Origin: Escherichia coli
GTDB lineage: Bacteria; Pseudomonadota; Gammaproteobacteria; Enterobacterales; Enterobacteriaceae
NCBI RefSeq assembly: GCF_051903065.1
Contig: NZ_CP178438.1
Direction: 5' to 3' (one strand)
Length of the DNA: 64,000 nucleotides
In this document: piece after piece, positions 32,401 through 50,400 of the stretch
How the letters are laid out: each line of letters opens with the position of its first letter
How positions within the stretch are numbered: the stretch's first letter is position 1
Program-made: the position numbers

Positions 32401-35400
32401 TATTCACTCGCTGGAAAACGTCTACAACATGGCGGCATTGCGCGCTAACGCAGGCCTGAACTCATCGTCGGATGAATTACAGGCCCAGACGCGTATTGCC
32501 GGAATGCGCTCAACGCTGGAGCAATATCAGGCGCAGATGGCGAGCGCCAAAGCGCAACTGGCGGTGCTCACTGGCGTACAGCCGGAGGCGATAGCCGCGC
32601 CACCTGCTGAATTAGCCGAGCAGCCGGTATCGCTGAAGAATATTGATTACCAGTCCATCCCGCTGGTGCTGGCGGCAGAAAACTTACGCCAGTCAGCACA
32701 GTACGGCGTGGAAAAAACGAAAGCGCAATACTGGCCAACGCTCAGTATTCAGGGGGGTAAAACGCGCTACCAGACCAGCGACCGCTCGTATTGGGATGAT
32801 CAGCTACAACTGAACGTTAACGCGCCGCTGTATCAGGGCGGCGCGGTTTCTGCCCAGGTGCAACAGGCCGAAGGGCAACAAAAAATCTCTGCCTCGCAGG
32901 TCGAACAGGCAAAACTGGATGTGCTGCAACGAGCGTCTGTGGCATATGCGAACTGGACCGGCGCACGGGGTCGTGAAGAAGCCGGTTTAGCGCAATCCGA
33001 AAGTGCGCACAAAACGCGAGATGTGTACCAAAATGAATATAAATTGGGTAAACGCAGTCTGAATGATCTATTAACCGTCGAGCAAGATGTCTTTCAGGCG
33101 CAATCGGCTGAAATAAATGCCAATTATGATGGCTGGGTCGCCGCCGTAAATTATGCCGCTGCGGTGAATAACCTTATTCCATTAGCGGGAATTAAACAGG
33201 GCTTATACAACGACTTACCCGACTTGAAATAATCCTGCCATTATTACTAGTGGGCCGTTGTTAAGTGATTACCTTTGTCTTATTTAGATAAATGGACTCG
33301 CTAAGGATGTGCGCCATTTATCAGGAATGCCATTATGAGCCTGATTATTGATGTTATTTCGCGTAAAACATCCGTCAAACAAACGCTGATTAATCCTGGC
33401 GACGTCACGGTTGTTATTTATGAGCCTTCCGTGGTGCAGGTTCATGCTCAGGCCTCTGCCGTTGCGCGTTACGTCCGTGAAGGAAATGACCTGCTGATCT
33501 ATATGCAGGACGGCACGGTGATCCGCTGCAACGGTTATTTCCTGCAAGCGGCGAATACAGCTGAACAATCGGAACTGGTGTTTGCCGATGGTCAACAGCT
33601 AACCCATATCACCTTTGCCGATACTGCTGCGGGTGGATTAGCCCCCGTAGAACTGACTGCCCAGACCACTGCGATTGAAAGCATTGCGCCATTTCTTGAT
33701 ACCGTTGCTCAGACCAGCGCCTTCCCGTGGGGTTGGCTGGCGGGGGCGGCGGTAGGTGGTGGCGCGCTTGGTGCACTGCTGGCAAGCGGTGGCGATGGCG
33801 ACTCGAAAACGGAAGTGATTAATAACCCTACGCCACCCGCTGAGCCTGGCAACGCCACACCATCATTTTTAGTTACCGATAATCAGGGCGATCAGCGCGG
33901 CATTCTCGCCACCAATGACATCACCGATGACACCACGCCAACCTTTAGCGGTAGCGGGCAGGCGGGGGCGACTATTCAGATTAAAGACAGTAACGGCAAT
34001 ACAATTGCCAGTACTCAGGTAGACAACAACGGTCACTGGAGTGTCTCGTTACCCACGCAAAGTGCAGGCGAACATACCTGGTCAGTGGTGCAAATTGTCG
34101 GCAGTACCATCACTGACGCCGGTTCGATAACGTTAACCATCGACAATAGTCAGGCCAGCGTGCAGGTTGCCACCACCGCAGGCGATAACATTATTAACGC
34201 CAGCGAACAGGCCGCCGGGTTTACGCTTTCTGGCACCAGTAGCCATCTGGCGCAGGGAACAGAACTCACCGTTACGCTAAACGGCAAAACCTACACCACC
34301 AGCGTAGGCGCTAACGGTGCCTGGAGCGTGCAGGTGCCGATCGCCGATGCACAGGCGTTAGGCGAAGGGAATCAGGCGGTACTGGTCAGTGGGAAAGACA
34401 CCACAGGCAATACGGTCACCGGCGCGCAGCTGCTAACGGTCGATACCCAACCGCCGACACTAGCTATCAACACCATCGCCCAGGACAACATCATCAGTGC
34501 TGCGGAACATAACGTCGCGCTGGTACTGAGCGGCACGTCGAATGCAGAAGCGGGGCAAACCGTAACACTGACCGTCAACGGGAAAAGCCATACAGCAACC
34601 GTCGGTAGCGACGGAACCTGGCAAGTGACGCTGCCTGCCACGGAAGTCCAGGCACTGGCGGAGGGTAATTACGCTGTCAATGCCAGTGTCAGCGATCGGG
34701 CAGGGAACACCACCAGCCACAGCGCGAATTTCACGGTAGACACCTCAGCACCCGTGGTCAGTGTTAATACCGTGGCGGGCGACGATATTCTTAATAATGC
34801 CGAGCAGGCCGTCGCGCAGATCATCTCCGGACAAGTTAGCGGTGCTTCTCCTGGCGATACGGTAACGGTGAAATTGGGCACTCATGTCCTGACGGGCATC
34901 GTGCTGGCAGATGGCAGTTGGAATGTGGCGTTGGACCCGGCGGTAACCCGCACGCTGGATCGCGGAGCCAATACGATTTTCGTCACCGTGACAGATGCTG
35001 CAGGAAATACTGGCGCGGCGTCTCGAGCAATCACGCTGATCGGTGTTTCTCCGTTGATCACCATTAACACCGTCTCCGGCGATGACATTATCAGTGGCGC
35101 AGAAAAAGGTGCGCCACTGACCCTTACCGGTAGCACTCAACAGGCTGAGACAGGACAAACCGTCACAGTAACCCTGGCTGGACAGAGTTTTACCACTACC
35201 GTGCAGGCCGATGGCTCCTGGAGTCTGACGGTACCTGCCGCCGCGATGGGAAATCTGCCTGACGGCGCGGTGGCGATTACCGCTTCTGTGACGGATCTCA
35301 GCGGCAATACCGGCAACACTTCCCGCACCATTACCGTCGATAGCCAGGCCCCGGCCTTAAGCATCGATCCACTGACCGCCGATAACATCATCAACGCCGC

Positions 35401-47400: not shown

Positions 47401-50400
47401 CACCGGCAGCAGCTCCGGCTTTGCCGCAGGCACGGCGTTGACGGTGGTGATTAACAACCAAACTTACGCCGCCACGGTGTTGGCGAATGGTACCTGGAGC
47501 GTCGGCGTACCGGCGGCGGATGTCAGTAACTGGCCTGCGGGAACGCTGAATATTACCGTTAGCGGGGCGAACAGTGCCGGAACGCAAACCAGCATTACCC
47601 ATCCGCTGACTGTTGATCTCACCGCCGTCGCCATCAGCATGAACAGCATCACCAGCGATGATGTGATTAACGCCGCCGAAAAAGGCGCGGCGTTAACGCT
47701 CTCCGGCAGCACGTCCGGCGTCGAAGCGGGGCAAACCGTCACCGTCACTTTTGGCGGCAAAACCTACACCTCCACGGTGGCGGCTAACGGTAGCTGGAGC
47801 ACCACCGTTCCGGCTGCGGATTTGGCGGCGCTGCGTGACGGCGATGCCAGCGCCCAGGTGCGGGTGACTAACGTCAACGGCAACAGCGCCACGGCAACGC
47901 ACGAATACAGCGTCGATAGCGCCGCGCCAACGGTCACCATCAACACCATTGCCAGCGATAACATCATCAACGCCAGCGAAGCGGCGGCGGGCGTAACGGT
48001 GTCCGGCACCAGCACGGCGCAAACCGGGCAGACGCTCACCGTCACGCTTAACGGCACTAACTACCAGACCACGGTGCAGGCAGACGGCAGTTGGAGCTTA
48101 ACGCTGCCCGCCAGCGACTTAACCGCACTGGCCAATAACGGCTACACCCTGACCGCTACGGTCAGCGATCTGGCGGGTAACCCTGGCAGCGCCAGCAAAG
48201 GTGTGACCGTCGATACCACCGCGCCGGTGATCAGCTTTAACACCGTGGCGGGCGATGATGTGATTAACAACGTCGAACACACTCAGGCGCAGATTATCAG
48301 CGGCACCGCCACGGGCGCGGTGGCGGGCGACCGCCTGGTAGTGACCATCGCCGGGCAGCAGTATGTCACCAGCACCGATGCCAGCGGCAACTGGAGCGTC
48401 GGCGTGCCTGCCAGCGTGATTTCCGGCCTTGCGGATGGCACGGTGACCATCAGCGCCACCATTACCGATAGCGCAGGCAACAGCAGCACGCAGACGCACA
48501 ACGTACAGGTGAACACGGCGGCAGTGTCGCTCTCGGTTAGCACCATCAGCGGCGATAATATTATTAACGCCGCCGAAGCGGGCAGTGCGCTGACCCTGAG
48601 CGGCACTGGCACTAATTTCGCGACAGGTACAGTGGTGACCGTGTTGCTTAACGGCAAAGGCTACAGCGCCACCATTCAGAGCAACGGGAGCTGGAGCGTG
48701 AACGTATCTGCGGCGGATGTTGCGGCGCTCAGTGATGGCACCAGCTACACGGTCAGCGCCTCCGCTCAGGACAGTGCCGGAAACAGCGCCACGGCCTCGC
48801 GCAGCGTGGCGGTGGATCTCACCGCGCCGGTTATCAGCATTAACACCGTTTCGACGGATGACCGACTCAACGCCGCCGAACAGCAGCAGCCGTTAACCCT
48901 TAACGGCTCGACCAGCGCGGAAGTGGGGCAGACGGTCACCGTGACCTTTGGCGGCAAAACCTATACCGCCACGGTTGCCGCCAATGGTACCTGGGCGCTG
49001 AACGTGCCTGCGGCGGATCTGGCCGCGCTCGGGCAGGGCGCGCAGACCATTACCGCCAGCGTGAACGATCGCGCCGGTAACCCCGGACAGGCCACGCACG
49101 CCCTGACCGTCGATACCGTTGCGCCAACGGTCACCATCGCCACGGTGGCGGGTGACGATATTATCAACAACGCCGAGCAGCTTGCCGGGCAGACCATTAG
49201 CGGCACCACCACCGCCGAAGTGGGTCAGACGGTGACCGTTACCTTTAACGGGCAAACCTGGAGCGCAACGGTCGGCAGCGGCGGAAGCTGGTCGGTGTTT
49301 ATTCCGGCGCAGCAGTTTGCCGGATTAAGCGACGGCAGCTACACCATCAGCGCGTCAGTCACCGATCAGGCCGGAAACCCCGGTAGCGCCAGCCGTGGCG
49401 TGACGTTGAACGGCGACGTGCCCACCGTCACCATCAACACCTTTGCGGGCGACGATGTGGTGAATGCAGCGGAACACGGCTCGTCGCTGGTGATCAGCGG
49501 CACCACCACCGCGCCCGTCGGGCAGACGCTGACCCTGACCTTAAACGGCAAAACCTACACCACCACGGTGCAGACGGGCGGTAGCTGGAGCTACACCCTC
49601 GGCAGCGCCGATGTCACCGCGCTGGCGGACGGCAACGCCTACGTGATTAACGCCTCGGTGAGCAATGCCATTGGCAATACCGGCAGCAGCAATCACACCA
49701 TTACCGTCGATCTCAGCGCCCCGGCGATGGGTATTAATATCGATTCCCTGCAAGCCGACACTGGCCTTAGCGCCAGCGACTTTATCACCAGCGTCAGTCC
49801 GGTGGTGGTCAACGGCTCGCTCACCGCCGCGCTTGCCAGTAACGAGACGGCGCAAATAAGTATCGACGGCGGCACAACCTGGACCACGCTTACCGTTACC
49901 GGCACGACCTGGCGCTATAACGACAGCCGCACGCTGACCGATGGCAACTATCTCTATCAGGTGCGGGTGATTGACGCAGCGGGCAACGTTGGCGCGACCG
50001 ACAGCCAGAATGTGGTGATCGACACTACCGCGCCAGATCCCGCGGTGAAAACCATCGCCATCAGCGCGATCACCACCGATACGGGCCTGATCGCTAACGA
50101 TTTTGTCACCAGCGACACGACGCTTGCAGTAAACGGCACGCTGGGCGCGGCGCTTTCTGCCGGTGAGTTCGCGCAAATCAGTATCGACGGCGGCACCACC
50201 TGGCAGAATCTTTCGGTAAGCGGTTTGACCTGGAGCTATCTTGACGGGCGTACGCTGACCGATGGCAACTACAACTACCAGGTGCGGGTGATCGACACCG
50301 CCGGAAATATCGGCGCGACCGCCAGCCAGATAGTCACTGTGGATACCACCGCGCCGCTGGCGAGCAAAACCATCGCCATTGCGAGCATCAGCGATGACAC

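What the first reader, a model, noticed from the sequence alone, without database searches (positions are those of the whole stretch)
34150..49720. Adhesin core is about 50 Ig-like repeats arranged as seven ~1.8-kb higher-order units
The same 30-40-nt strings recur every ~1797 bp seven times (about 36.5-49 kb), and each unit holds six ~100-aa repeat subtypes in fixed order. The unit, not the single repeat, appears to have been amplified. Long near-identical units make the locus prone to copy-number change by unequal recombination, which would alter stalk length, and they are a classic source of short-read assembly error, so the true length is uncertain.
Basis: seen in the sequence. Interest (0 to 1): 0.6.

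Follow-up and report, generated by a model that had tools for sequence, protein, structure and literature searches.

The report
Ancient six-domain super-repeat in SiiEA adhesin
The stalk of E. coli's giant SiiEA surface adhesin really is built from seven copies of a six-domain block, but the blocks are old and only about 70% alike, so the gene is stable and correctly assembled, not a recombination hot spot.

Summary
The 6,925-aa ORF (33335-54112) is E. coli siiEA, the type I-secreted RTX adhesin of O-island 28. It holds 52 Ig-like repeats of about 100 aa (34163-49726). Repeats R07-R48 form seven in-register units of six subtypes (35957-48532; 1794-1803 nt each).

The units are not near-identical:
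- DNA identity between units is 67-78%, and the longest shared exact run is 39 nt.
- Same-subtype copies have dS of about 1.0 and dN/dS of about 0.2.
- The same six subtypes occur in the same cyclic order in relatives from at least eight other enterobacterial genera, so the super-repeat predates Escherichia.

Most sampled siiEA-bearing complete E. coli genomes carry a colinear 20,778-nt gene at 94-96% identity, and three are 100% identical. The length in this window is therefore not an assembly artefact.

Copy-number change exists but is rare and clonal. A one-unit deletion is in 86 genomes, a one-repeat deletion in 305 (the O157:H7 lineage), and three extra ancestral repeats in 27. Other sampled deletions remove 1, 3, 4 or 12 repeats.

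The region is an ordinary, Ca2+-rigidified extender of a known adhesin. Its conserved six-domain periodicity does not appear in the papers I could search.

The parts
31877..33232 (+). TolC-family outer-membrane component of the dedicated type I secretion system
   Evidence: TIGR01844, 416 bits against a cut-off of 225. RefSeq annotates the same gene in the 100%-identical strain.
33335..54112 (+). siiEA, a giant BapA-related RTX adhesin (6,925 aa, intact ORF)
   Evidence: ORF list. NF047714 'adhesin_SiiEA', 512 bits against a cut-off of 425. RefSeq annotates siiEA under the match in the listed matching E. coli genomes.
33335..34024 (+). N-terminal SiiEA-specific module that includes the BapA prefix-like domain (aa 1-230). 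It is presumed to be the cell-surface retention end.
   Evidence: NF047714 covers aa 1-230 and NF033677 covers aa 5-69. It is conserved at 50-60% identity in other genera. The retention role is inferred by analogy with LapA-type adhesins.
34163..35956 (+). Repeats R01-R06, the divergent N-proximal Ig-like repeats. R04-R06 are a degenerate 4-5-6 half unit left after loss of three ancestral repeats.
   Evidence: The alleles in L003, L008 and L013 and the other genera carry three extra repeats between R03 and R04.
35957..37759 (+). Super-repeat unit 1 (R07-R12, subtypes 1-6), 1803 nt
37760..39553 (+). Super-repeat unit 2 (R13-R18), 1794 nt
   Evidence: Six Big_13 hits, four at E<=0.001. AlphaFold2 model of six beta-sandwiches, mean pLDDT 93. 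Best fold match is 4P99.
39554..41347 (+). Super-repeat unit 3 (R19-R24), 1794 nt
41348..43147 (+). Super-repeat unit 4 (R25-R30), 1800 nt. R25 is the repeat missing from O157:H7 alleles. R23-R28 are missing from the 6,324-aa allele.
43148..44941 (+). Super-repeat unit 5 (R31-R36), 1794 nt
44942..46738 (+). Super-repeat unit 6 (R37-R42), 1797 nt
46739..48532 (+). Super-repeat unit 7 (R43-R48), 1794 nt
48533..49726 (+). Repeats R49-R52, the divergent C-proximal Ig-like repeats. R50 resembles subtype 4 and R51 resembles subtype 5.
49849..50839 (+). A second, different repeat class of about 106 aa (318 nt). More diverged copies continue downstream. One copy is absent from O157:H7.
   Evidence: Tandem Repeats Finder: period 318, 3.1 copies. 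Ca_tandemer hits. Weak match to SiiE BIg50-52, PDB 2YN3.
52070..53011 (+). FG-GAP-like repeat region, the presumed distal ligand-binding beta-propeller
   Evidence: Pfam FG-GAP_3, three hits at E 2e-9 to 2e-7. The ligand-binding role is inferred.
53402..53740 (+). RTX Ca2+-binding nonapeptide repeats
   Evidence: Pfam HemolysinCabind, E=1.4e-4. Weak CyaA RTX matches.
53792..54100 (+). Type I secretion C-terminal target domain
   Evidence: TIGR03661, 33.4 bits against a cut-off of 17.6
54116..56277 (+). Type I secretion ABC permease/ATPase, split in this window by a 1-nt deletion at about 55514
   Evidence: Two overlapping ORFs. TIGR03375 matches only positions 2-468 of 696. Alignment to intact copies shows the missing A. 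RefSeq flags it 'frameshifted' in the identical strain.
56274..57449 (+). HlyD-family periplasmic adaptor of the type I secretion system
   Evidence: TIGR01843, 328 bits against a cut-off of 209

Best explanation
The region is the extender (stalk) of SiiEA, the giant type I-secreted RTX adhesin of E. coli O-island 28. It consists of 52 Ca2+-binding Ig-like beta-sandwich domains of the MpIBP-RII / Big_13 type. The central 42 domains are seven copies of a six-domain super-repeat.

The super-repeat is ancient. The six domain subtypes and their cyclic order were already present in the common ancestor of adhesins now found in Escherichia, Enterobacter, Lelliottia, Huaxiibacter, Cedecea, Pluralibacter, Pseudocitrobacter, Edaphovirga and Rosenbergiella. 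The unit copies in E. coli have since diverged to 67-78% DNA identity under purifying selection.

At this divergence the units share no long identical tract. Homologous exchange between them is therefore rare, and the array behaves as a stable single-copy coding sequence. Within E. coli it has changed only through a handful of clonal deletions of one to twelve repeats.

Function is inferred by homology and not shown here. By analogy with the Ca2+-bridged domain junctions solved for MpIBP, the domains would make a rigid rod of roughly 0.2-0.25 um (about 4.6 nm per domain, about 28 nm per unit). The rod would hold the C-terminal FG-GAP/RTX region away from the outer membrane.
For: **Identity of the gene.**
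- NF047714, 512 bits against a cut-off of 425. TolC, ABC and HlyD genes flank it.
- RefSeq annotation and the glsA-ybaT...cueR context.
- Published role in adherence (PMC12758282).

**Fold of the repeats.**
- Six Big_13 hits per unit, four at E<=0.001.
- phmmer to 4P99, E=2e-59.
- AlphaFold2 gives six beta-sandwiches with pLDDT 93. The best Foldseek hits are 4P99, 5IRB and 6XI3.

**Higher-order structure.** Lag-6 identity is 0.72 against 0.44, with 0 of 20,000 shuffles reaching it.

**Age of the units.**
- Unit DNA identity is 67-78% and the longest exact run is 39 nt.
- Paralog dS has a median of 1.04 and a minimum of 0.50, with dN/dS of about 0.2.
- Orthologous alleles have dS 0.17-0.26 and dN/dS of about 0.1.
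- Subtype HMMs trained on E. coli label repeats in 21 loci from other genera in perfect 1-2-3-4-5-6 cycles. Unit lengths there are also about 1794-1797 nt.
- 25 subtype-specific residues are conserved in >=90% of 39 units.
- Lelliottia and E. cloacae show mostly 1:1 positional orthology.

**Stability.**
- Every listed match down to about half of the ranking is one colinear piece of about 20,778 nt.
- Each length variant has a single junction: 86, 305 and 27 genomes.
- No allele has an internal exact repeat longer than 44 nt.

**Ca2+ rigidification and 4.5-4.7 nm per domain.** PMC4083281.
Against: - Ca2+ binding, rod length and the ligand-binding role of the FG-GAP region are inferred by homology and were not tested here.
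- Within-E. coli same-subtype identity (0.67) exceeds cross-genus identity (0.59). Some groups are tighter still (R15/R21/R27 at 81-85% DNA). Some unit multiplication or homogenisation therefore happened after the genera split.
- E. coli versus Lelliottia shows positional orthology only near the N-terminus.
- Only the first 10 kb of the gene was available for other genera, so their full arrays and unit numbers are unknown.
- The allele census comes from junction queries and a 1-in-16 sample of the ranking, not from a full phylogeny.
Confidence: 0.85

Rival explanations
1. The units are a recently amplified, near-identical tandem array. The array is a hot spot for unequal recombination, giving a contingency-type variable stalk length. 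It is also likely to be mis-assembled, so the seven-unit count is unreliable.
For: - A strict 1.8-kb periodicity exists.
- One intact allele lacks exactly one unit, with a clean in-register crossover.
- Another allele lacks two units.
- Many short-read contigs of homologues end inside the gene, and the protein databases hold many fragments of it.
Against: - Units are 67-78% identical, the longest shared run is 39 nt, and the best 150-nt window is 92.7%.
- Paralog dS is at least 0.5.
- The gene has an identical 20,778-nt length in dozens of listed diverse complete genomes, and three are 100% identical.
- The one-unit deletion is a single event with a junction >=99% identical in 86 genomes.
- Most deletions are not unit-sized.
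Confidence: 0.04
2. The six-domain block is a functional structural period kept by selection, not just inherited order. Each subtype would have its own role or a co-adapted interface with its neighbours, as in titin super-repeats. The period could set a helical or binding register, so only in-register changes would be tolerated.
For: - Subtype identity and order are conserved across at least nine genera.
- 25 subtype-specific residues are conserved at >=90% across seven genera.
- Subtype 3 uniquely lacks the otherwise conserved 'GN' motif.
- All subtypes are under similar purifying selection, omega 0.08-0.12.
- The only shortened allele with an intact ORF lost exactly six repeats in register. 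The alleles with 1-, 3- or 4-repeat deletions are all annotated as pseudogenes.
Against: - Order conservation is also expected from common descent when out-of-register events are rare.
- The inactivating mutations lie far from the deletion junctions. In-register alleles in L001, L003 and L008 are also flagged as frameshifted, so the correlation is weak.
- The O157:H7 allele that lacks R25 is reported as needed for adherence (PMC12758282).
- MpIBP works with about 120 identical repeats (PMC4083281), so distinct subtypes are not required for an extender.
Confidence: 0.2
3. The units are kept alike by ongoing concerted evolution, meaning ectopic gene conversion between units. The array would then be younger and more dynamic than its divergence suggests.
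For: - Within-E. coli same-subtype identity (0.67) is higher than cross-genus identity (0.59).
- Per-subtype similarity groupings of the units disagree with one another, which indicates a mosaic history.
- Allelic dS is higher in the super-repeat region (0.19-0.25) than in the flanking repeats (0.16) or the C-terminal part (0.16).
- There is one candidate tract: in L003, 23 of 29 differences in R12 match R18.
Against: - A run-length test on four alleles found no excess of paralog-matching runs over shuffles.
- No allele has an internal identical tract longer than 44 nt.
- Every repeat has an unambiguous 1:1 ortholog at 85-100% identity across alleles, against at most 85% to any paralog.
Confidence: 0.1

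Closest known systems
E. coli O157:H7 O-island 28 RTX adhesin (Z0609 + Z0615, 'RtxA28/RtxB28'; RefSeq siiEA)
   Same: It is the same gene at the same locus (tolC-like, siiEA, ABC, hlyD between ybaT and cueR). Nucleotide identity is about 95%, with 1:1 orthologous repeats. It is reported to be needed for early adherence (PMC12758282).
   Different: The O157:H7 allele is 20,160 nt. It lacks repeat R25 and one 318-nt C-terminal repeat. An in-frame stop at codon 1462 splits it into the two 'genes' of the paper. The window allele is an intact 6,925-aa ORF, but its ABC exporter gene is frameshifted. The passages retrieved by my term search of the paper do not describe the six-domain periodicity, and 'tandem' does not occur in it.
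Marinomonas primoryensis ice-binding adhesin MpIBP/MpAFP, region II (PDB 4P99)
   Same: It is the closest solved structure to the repeats: phmmer E=2e-59 and Foldseek E=5e-32 at 35% identity. It is also a tandem Ig-like extender of a type I-secreted RTX adhesin, rigidified by Ca2+ at the domain junctions (PMC4083281).
   Different: MpIBP has about 120 repeats that are identical even at the DNA level. SiiEA has six diverged subtypes, about 44% identical to their neighbours, in a fixed cycle. Same-subtype copies are only 57-85% identical in DNA.
Extender patterns catalogued in other RTX adhesins (bioRxiv 10.1101/2025.09.30.679566)
   Same: That survey notes that edge extenders are divergent and interior ones more alike. 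[quoted passage not shown] This is the same kind of multi-domain block repetition.
   Different: The period here is six domains. No two extenders reach that paper's 80% grouping threshold consistently, and the pattern is conserved across genera. The paper's warning about short-read mis-assembly concerns arrays of identical repeats, which this is not.
Salmonella BapA and the BapA/Bap/LapF prefix-domain adhesins
   Same: It shares the N-terminal BapA prefix-like domain (NF033677, 70 bits), the tandem Big repeats and the dedicated type I secretion system.
   Different: NCBI models SiiEA as a separate 'exception' family (NF047714). I did not examine whether BapA itself has the six-subtype cycle.
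Acinetobacter baumannii Bap
   Same: It is a giant adhesin made of several Ig-like module types in arrays. The authors argue that module diversification lowers slippage and misfolding (PMC4647330).
   Different: Bap is reported as highly polymorphic in module content between strains. SiiEA architecture is nearly invariant across the sampled E. coli carrier genomes.
Higher-order repeats of satellite DNA, and titin/nebulin super-repeats (comparison from general knowledge, not tested here)
   Same: Monomer subtypes occur in a fixed order, and similarity is higher between units than between neighbouring monomers.
   Different: Satellite higher-order repeats are typically 95-100% identical and are actively homogenised. 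Here the units are 67-78% identical, are protein-coding and are under purifying selection.

Membership tests
BapA-related adhesin SiiEA (NCBIfam NF047714) | The N-terminal region scores above the curated cut-off | tested here: met
   512.3 bits against a cut-off of 425, aa 1-230
BapA-related adhesin SiiEA (NCBIfam NF047714) | Chromosomal island between ybaT and cueR with its own TolC, ABC and HlyD genes | tested here: met
   The same layout occurs in O157:H7 and other strains.
RTX (LapA/MpIBP-type) type I-secreted fibrillar adhesin | Central extender of tandem Ig-like beta-sandwich domains | tested here: met
   52 repeats, Big_13, 4P99 homology, AlphaFold2 pLDDT 93
RTX (LapA/MpIBP-type) type I-secreted fibrillar adhesin | C-terminal RTX nonapeptide repeats and an uncleaved type I secretion signal | tested here: met
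   HemolysinCabind E=1.4e-4. TIGR03661, 33.4 bits against a cut-off of 17.6.
RTX (LapA/MpIBP-type) type I-secreted fibrillar adhesin | Functional dedicated secretion apparatus next to the gene | tested here: inconclusive
   The TolC-like and HlyD genes are intact. The ABC gene has a 1-nt deletion at about 55514 in this window. It could be a real mutation or a homopolymer sequencing error.
RTX (LapA/MpIBP-type) type I-secreted fibrillar adhesin | N-terminal retention module released by LapG at a dialanine site under LapD control | tested here: inconclusive
   A BapA prefix-like domain is present. A 'TAAG' occurs at aa 97-100, but it is not conserved in the cross-genus alignment. No LapG or LapD gene lies in the operon. 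The rest of the genome was not available.
RTX (LapA/MpIBP-type) type I-secreted fibrillar adhesin | Ca2+-dependent rigidification of the extender | not testable with these tools
   Inferred from homology to 4P99 and from the conserved acidic D..N..E motif at the start of each repeat
Higher-order (multi-monomer) tandem repeat | Two or more monomer subtypes in a fixed cyclic order, with between-unit similarity above neighbour similarity | tested here: met
   Same-subtype aa identity is 0.65-0.79 against 0.36-0.50 between subtypes. The lag-6 peak was reached by 0 of 20,000 shuffles.
Higher-order (multi-monomer) tandem repeat | Units nearly identical (recent amplification or active homogenisation) | tested here: not met
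   67-78% DNA identity, dS median 1.04, longest exact run 39 nt
Hypervariable / contingency repeat locus | Frequent independent copy-number changes among close relatives | tested here: not met
   The gene is colinear at 20,778 nt in most sampled carrier genomes. Each variant has a single junction shared at >=99% identity.

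The most novel reading that the evidence does not exclude
The six-domain cycle is a selected structural period of this adhesin family, not merely inherited order. Each subtype would form a co-adapted Ca2+-bridged interface with the next, or would present a periodic site every ~28 nm. That would allow in-register side-by-side association of stalks, or set a defined helical register. Only whole-unit changes in stalk length would then be tolerated. This would be a bacterial counterpart of titin-type super-repeats, conserved across Enterobacterales.
Probability: 0.15. 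Interest if true: 0.55.

Novelty: new member of a known kind. Interest (0 to 1): 0.3.

Why it matters
**Practical points.**
- The finding removes a worry. The 20.8-kb siiEA gene in this window can be taken at face value.
- siiEA length variants in E. coli are few and clonal. They could serve as lineage markers, for example the R25 deletion in typical O157:H7 and the one-unit deletion in an 86-genome lineage.
- The two 'RTX proteins' of O-island 28 in O157:H7 are one gene cut by a nonsense codon.

**Conceptual point.** Giant repeat proteins need not be unstable. Here a long stalk is built from blocks whose neighbouring domains are about 44% identical and whose blocks are about 70% identical in DNA. 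That is roughly the level engineers deliberately recode to in order to stop recombination in E. coli (PMC7493085).

The deep conservation of six ordered subtypes raises a testable question: does the order itself matter for folding, secretion or rod geometry?

Tried and rejected
- **Tandem Repeats Finder.** It cannot see a 1.8-kb period because its maximum is 500 nt. It found only the unrelated 318-nt repeat.
- **Regex-based segmentation of homologues.** It missed some repeats and gave spurious lag-4 and lag-10 peaks, for example in Pluralibacter. HMM-based segmentation and subtype labelling replaced it and showed clean 1-6 cycles.
- **Two large protein searches, with the N-terminus and the C-terminus.** They returned only fragments of at most about 1,200 aa. 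They gave no census of full lengths and no unit counts for other genera.
- **A three-repeat sub-period.** k-mer offsets at 897, 2691 and 6288 nt suggested one. The inter-subtype identity matrix shows no i/i+3 relationship, so I rejected it.
- **Run-length test for ectopic gene conversion between units in four alleles.** There was no excess over shuffles, and only one candidate tract.
- **An ungapped comparison of the siiEA N-terminus with L009.** It gave a false 65% identity because of a small indel. I disregarded it after checking with BLAST.
- **PADLOC on the two ORFs downstream of cueR.** It gave only marginal JetC/LmuB hits, which I did not pursue.
- **Neighbour dissimilarity as a universal folding requirement.** I rejected this because MpIBP functions with identical neighbours.

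Full report
**1. What is at the coordinates**

- The window holds one intact ORF at 33335-54112 on the + strand, 6,925 aa.
- Upstream lies a TolC-family gene (31877-33232). Downstream lie a type I secretion ABC permease/ATPase (54116-56277) and a HlyD-family adaptor (56274-57449).
- The first 230 aa score 512 bits against NCBIfam NF047714, 'BapA-related adhesin SiiEA' (cut-off 425). They include a BapA prefix-like domain.
- The C-terminal part has FG-GAP-like repeats, RTX nonapeptide repeats and a type I secretion target domain.
- Megablast against 5,426 complete E. coli genomes finds the gene in 959 of them, always chromosomal and annotated siiEA in the listed hits. It sits between glsA-ybaT and cueR.
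- This is O-island 28 of EHEC O157:H7. Its type I secretion system and 'RTX proteins' Z0609/Z0615 were recently reported to be needed for early adherence (PMC12758282).

**2.

- A motif scan gives 52 repeats of 99-102 aa from aa 277 to 5465, nt 34163-49726.
- Shared k-mer offsets peak at 1794, 1797 and 1803 nt and at their multiples.
- Mean aa identity between repeats is 0.72 at lags 6, 12, 18 and 24 and 0.43-0.46 at other lags. None of 20,000 shuffles of repeat order came near this.
- R07-R48 form seven units of 1803, 1794, 1794, 1800, 1794, 1797 and 1794 nt, spanning 35957-48532.
- Same-subtype identity is 0.65-0.79. Between subtypes it is 0.36-0.50.
- The flanking repeats are degenerate partial units. 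R04-R06 resemble subtypes 4-5-6, R50 resembles subtype 4 and R51 resembles subtype 5.
- Each unit gives six Pfam Big_13 hits, four at E<=0.001 and two weaker.
- The closest solved protein is the MpIBP region II tetra-tandemer 4P99, E=2e-59.
- An AlphaFold2 model of unit 2, built on 39 units from seven genera, gives six beta-sandwiches at mean pLDDT 93. Its best Foldseek hits are 4P99, 5IRB and 6XI3, which are all RTX-adhesin extenders.

**3. The units are old, not near-identical**

- Pairwise DNA identity between units is 67-78%. The longest run shared by any two units is 39 nt, which is also the longest direct exact repeat in the whole gene.
- The most similar 150-nt window between any two units is 92.7% identical. 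The most similar 300-nt window is 86%.
- For the 126 same-subtype repeat pairs, dN has a median of 0.22 and dS a median of 1.04 (range 0.50-2.0). dN/dS is about 0.2.
- Orthologous repeats in other E. coli and Escherichia alleles differ by dS 0.17-0.26 and dN of about 0.02. omega is 0.08-0.12 for every subtype.
- The unit copies therefore separated several times further back than the deepest allelic split sampled. Each copy has been under purifying selection since.
- A paralog dS of about 1 is of the order usually quoted for E. coli versus Salmonella genes (established knowledge). This fits the cross-genus result in section 4.

**4. The six-subtype cycle is family-wide**

- A scan of one genome per species for the N-terminal module returned 40 loci in Escherichia, Lelliottia, Enterobacter, Huaxiibacter, Cedecea, Pluralibacter, Pseudocitrobacter, Trabulsiella, Buttiauxella, Rosenbergiella, Edaphovirga and others.
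- I segmented the first ~10 kb of each gene with a general repeat HMM. I then scored each domain against six subtype HMMs trained only on the E. coli units.
- All 21 loci analysed show the cycle 1-2-3-4-5-6 repeated four to five times, mostly with margins of at least 15 bits.
- Their unit lengths are typically about 1794-1797 nt.
- Across 39 units from seven genera, 25 positions are conserved at >=90% within one subtype but differ in most other subtypes.
- Lelliottia and Enterobacter cloacae show mostly 1:1 positional orthology of repeats. E. coli versus Lelliottia shows it only near the N-terminus, plus a few short colinear runs. Examples are R24-R25 and R35-R37, which are closer to Lelliottia repeats than to any E. 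coli paralog.
- Mean same-subtype identity is 0.67 within E. coli and 0.59 between E. coli and Lelliottia or Enterobacter.
- The subtypes and their order therefore predate these genera. Part of the unit multiplication or reshuffling is lineage-specific.
- The per-subtype similarity groupings of the seven E. coli units disagree with one another. The history is mosaic rather than one burst of whole-unit duplication.

**5. Stability and assembly**

- In the top 40 hits and in a 1-in-16 sample of the whole ranking, every match down to about the middle of the list is one ungapped-looking piece at 94-96% identity. Nearly all are exactly 20,778 nt.
- These include O55:H7 CB9615, EAEC 042 and isolates from humans, baboons, poultry, pigs and water.
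- Three genomes are 100% identical. Two of them are one base shorter and are flagged as frameshifted.
- The seven-unit count in this window is therefore reproduced by many independent complete assemblies.
- Short-read contigs of homologues do often end inside the gene, and the protein databases are full of fragments. The risk for short reads is fragmentation, not collapse of units.

**6. Length variants that do exist**

I mapped each allele's repeats to the window's 52 repeats. Orthologs are at 85-100% identity and paralogs at 85% or less, so the assignment is unambiguous.

- **18,975-nt intact allele (WP_001550748.1).** It lacks R23-R28, which is exactly six repeats in register. There is one clean switch from R22-like to R29-like sequence at the repeat boundary. 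Its junction is >=99% identical in 86 genomes.
- **O157:H7 allele, 20,160 nt.**
  - It lacks only R25 and one 318-nt C-terminal repeat.
  - An in-frame stop at codon 1462 produces 'Z0609' and 'Z0615'.
  - Its R24/R26 junction is >=99% identical in 305 genomes.
  - O55:H7 and the O157:H7-labelled strains LSU61 and 493/89 still have 20,778 nt.
- **17,006-nt frameshifted allele.** It lacks R08, R13-R24 (two units) and R35-R37.
- **19,580-nt frameshifted allele.** It lacks R42-R45.
- **55-repeat form.** 27 genomes keep three extra repeats between R03 and R04. The other genera have these too, so the common 52-repeat allele is itself a three-repeat deletion derivative.
- **IS insertion.** One genome has an IS4 element inserted in the gene.

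No allele contains an internal identical tract longer than 44 nt. A run-length test found no excess of paralog-matching runs, and hence no sign of frequent recent gene conversion.

**7. Most likely mechanism**

- *Shown:* this is the extender of a type I-secreted RTX adhesin. It is made of RII-like Ig domains arranged as an ancient six-domain super-repeat that now evolves mainly by point substitution.
- *Inferred from homology (PMC4083281, PMC7493085):* Ca2+ bound at the acidic domain junctions stiffens the chain. The D..N..E motif at the start of each repeat is conserved in nearly all 52 repeats. At about 4.6 nm per domain the 52 repeats would span roughly 0.24 um, and one unit about 28 nm.
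- *Inferred:* the low DNA identity between units is why the array is stable. Experimenters who clone such repeats in E. coli recode them to below 75% identity for exactly this reason (PMC7493085).
- *Open:* whether the order of subtypes is itself under selection. The only shortened allele with an intact ORF is the in-register one. However, the inactivating mutations in the other alleles lie away from their deletion junctions, and some in-register alleles are also flagged as frameshifted.

**8. Comparison with what is known**

- The gene and its role are known.
- Tandem Ig-like extenders are known. A recent survey of RTX adhesins describes divergent edge repeats, more similar interior repeats and multi-domain patterns such as repeated pairs.
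- I found no paper in the searchable library that describes a six-domain cycle in SiiEA or BapA-type adhesins, or that uses 'higher-order repeat' or 'super-repeat' for RTX adhesins.
- The finding is therefore a new, modestly interesting descriptive feature of a known gene. It belongs to a known kind of repeat organisation.

**9. Verdict**

Unit-level organisation and the existence of unit-number variants are right. Near-identity, recombination-proneness and assembly doubt are wrong.
- Interest is low to moderate.

Noticed in passing
window 54116-56277 (indel at about 55514): The type I secretion ABC exporter gene is split into two overlapping ORFs. The cause is a 1-nt deletion in an A-run (CATAAAGC becomes CATAAGC) relative to intact copies in other strains. 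RefSeq flags the same gene as frameshifted in the 100%-identical strain 23CRST027. If real, this strain could not export its intact 6,925-aa adhesin. It may instead be a homopolymer sequencing error.
   Followed up: partly
L004 and L010 (O157:H7), gene nt 4384-4386; corresponds to window ~37718: In O157:H7 the adhesin gene has an in-frame stop at codon 1462. This gives ORFs of 1,461 and 5,257 aa. These are the 'two RTX proteins' Z0609 and Z0615 (RtxA28/RtxB28) of PMC12758282, so they are one interrupted gene rather than two genes.
   Followed up: partly
window 33623-33634 (SiiEA aa 97-100): A 'TAAG' motif resembles the dialanine site cut by the LapG protease in LapA-type adhesins. It is not conserved in the cross-genus N-terminal alignment (A1), and no LapG or LapD gene is in the operon. 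It is probably fortuitous.
   Followed up: partly
window 57854-61678 (- strand ORFs 57854-59083 and 59876-61678): The interval between cueR and ybbJ differs from O157:H7 and other strains, which carry a YadA-family autotransporter there. This window has a 408-aa protein with no family hit. It also has a 599-aa coiled-coil SMC/Rad50-like ATPase with only marginal JetC/LmuB hits (E~2e-3). An IS903B lies next to it in the identical strain. It may be a small variable or defence-type islet.
   Followed up: partly
window 29312-57449 compared with L009: Synonymous divergence between this strain and the L009 strain rises steadily across the locus: glsA 0.055, ybaT 0.048, tolC-like 0.091, hlyD-like 0.138, siiEA C-terminus 0.158, super-repeat region about 0.24. 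The island carries older or more divergent alleles than its core-genome flanks, and the repeat region is the most divergent part.
   Followed up: partly
window 49849-51650: A second class of about 106-aa repeats (318-nt period) follows the 52 Big_13 repeats. There are three clear copies and more diverged ones. It matches Salmonella SiiE BIg50-52 (2YN3) weakly and varies by one copy in O157:H7.
   Followed up: partly
L003 gene nt 5031-5330 (ortholog of window R12, 37460-37759): In strain PCN033, 23 of the 29 differences from the window's R12 match its own paralog R18, including a run of 14. This is the single candidate for an ectopic gene-conversion tract between units.
   Followed up: no
L011 (E. 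coli E105), gene position ~17399; window ~50733: An IS4-family element is inserted in siiEA in one genome. This is another route to inactivation of the gene, besides the frameshifts and nonsense codon seen in other alleles.
   Followed up: no
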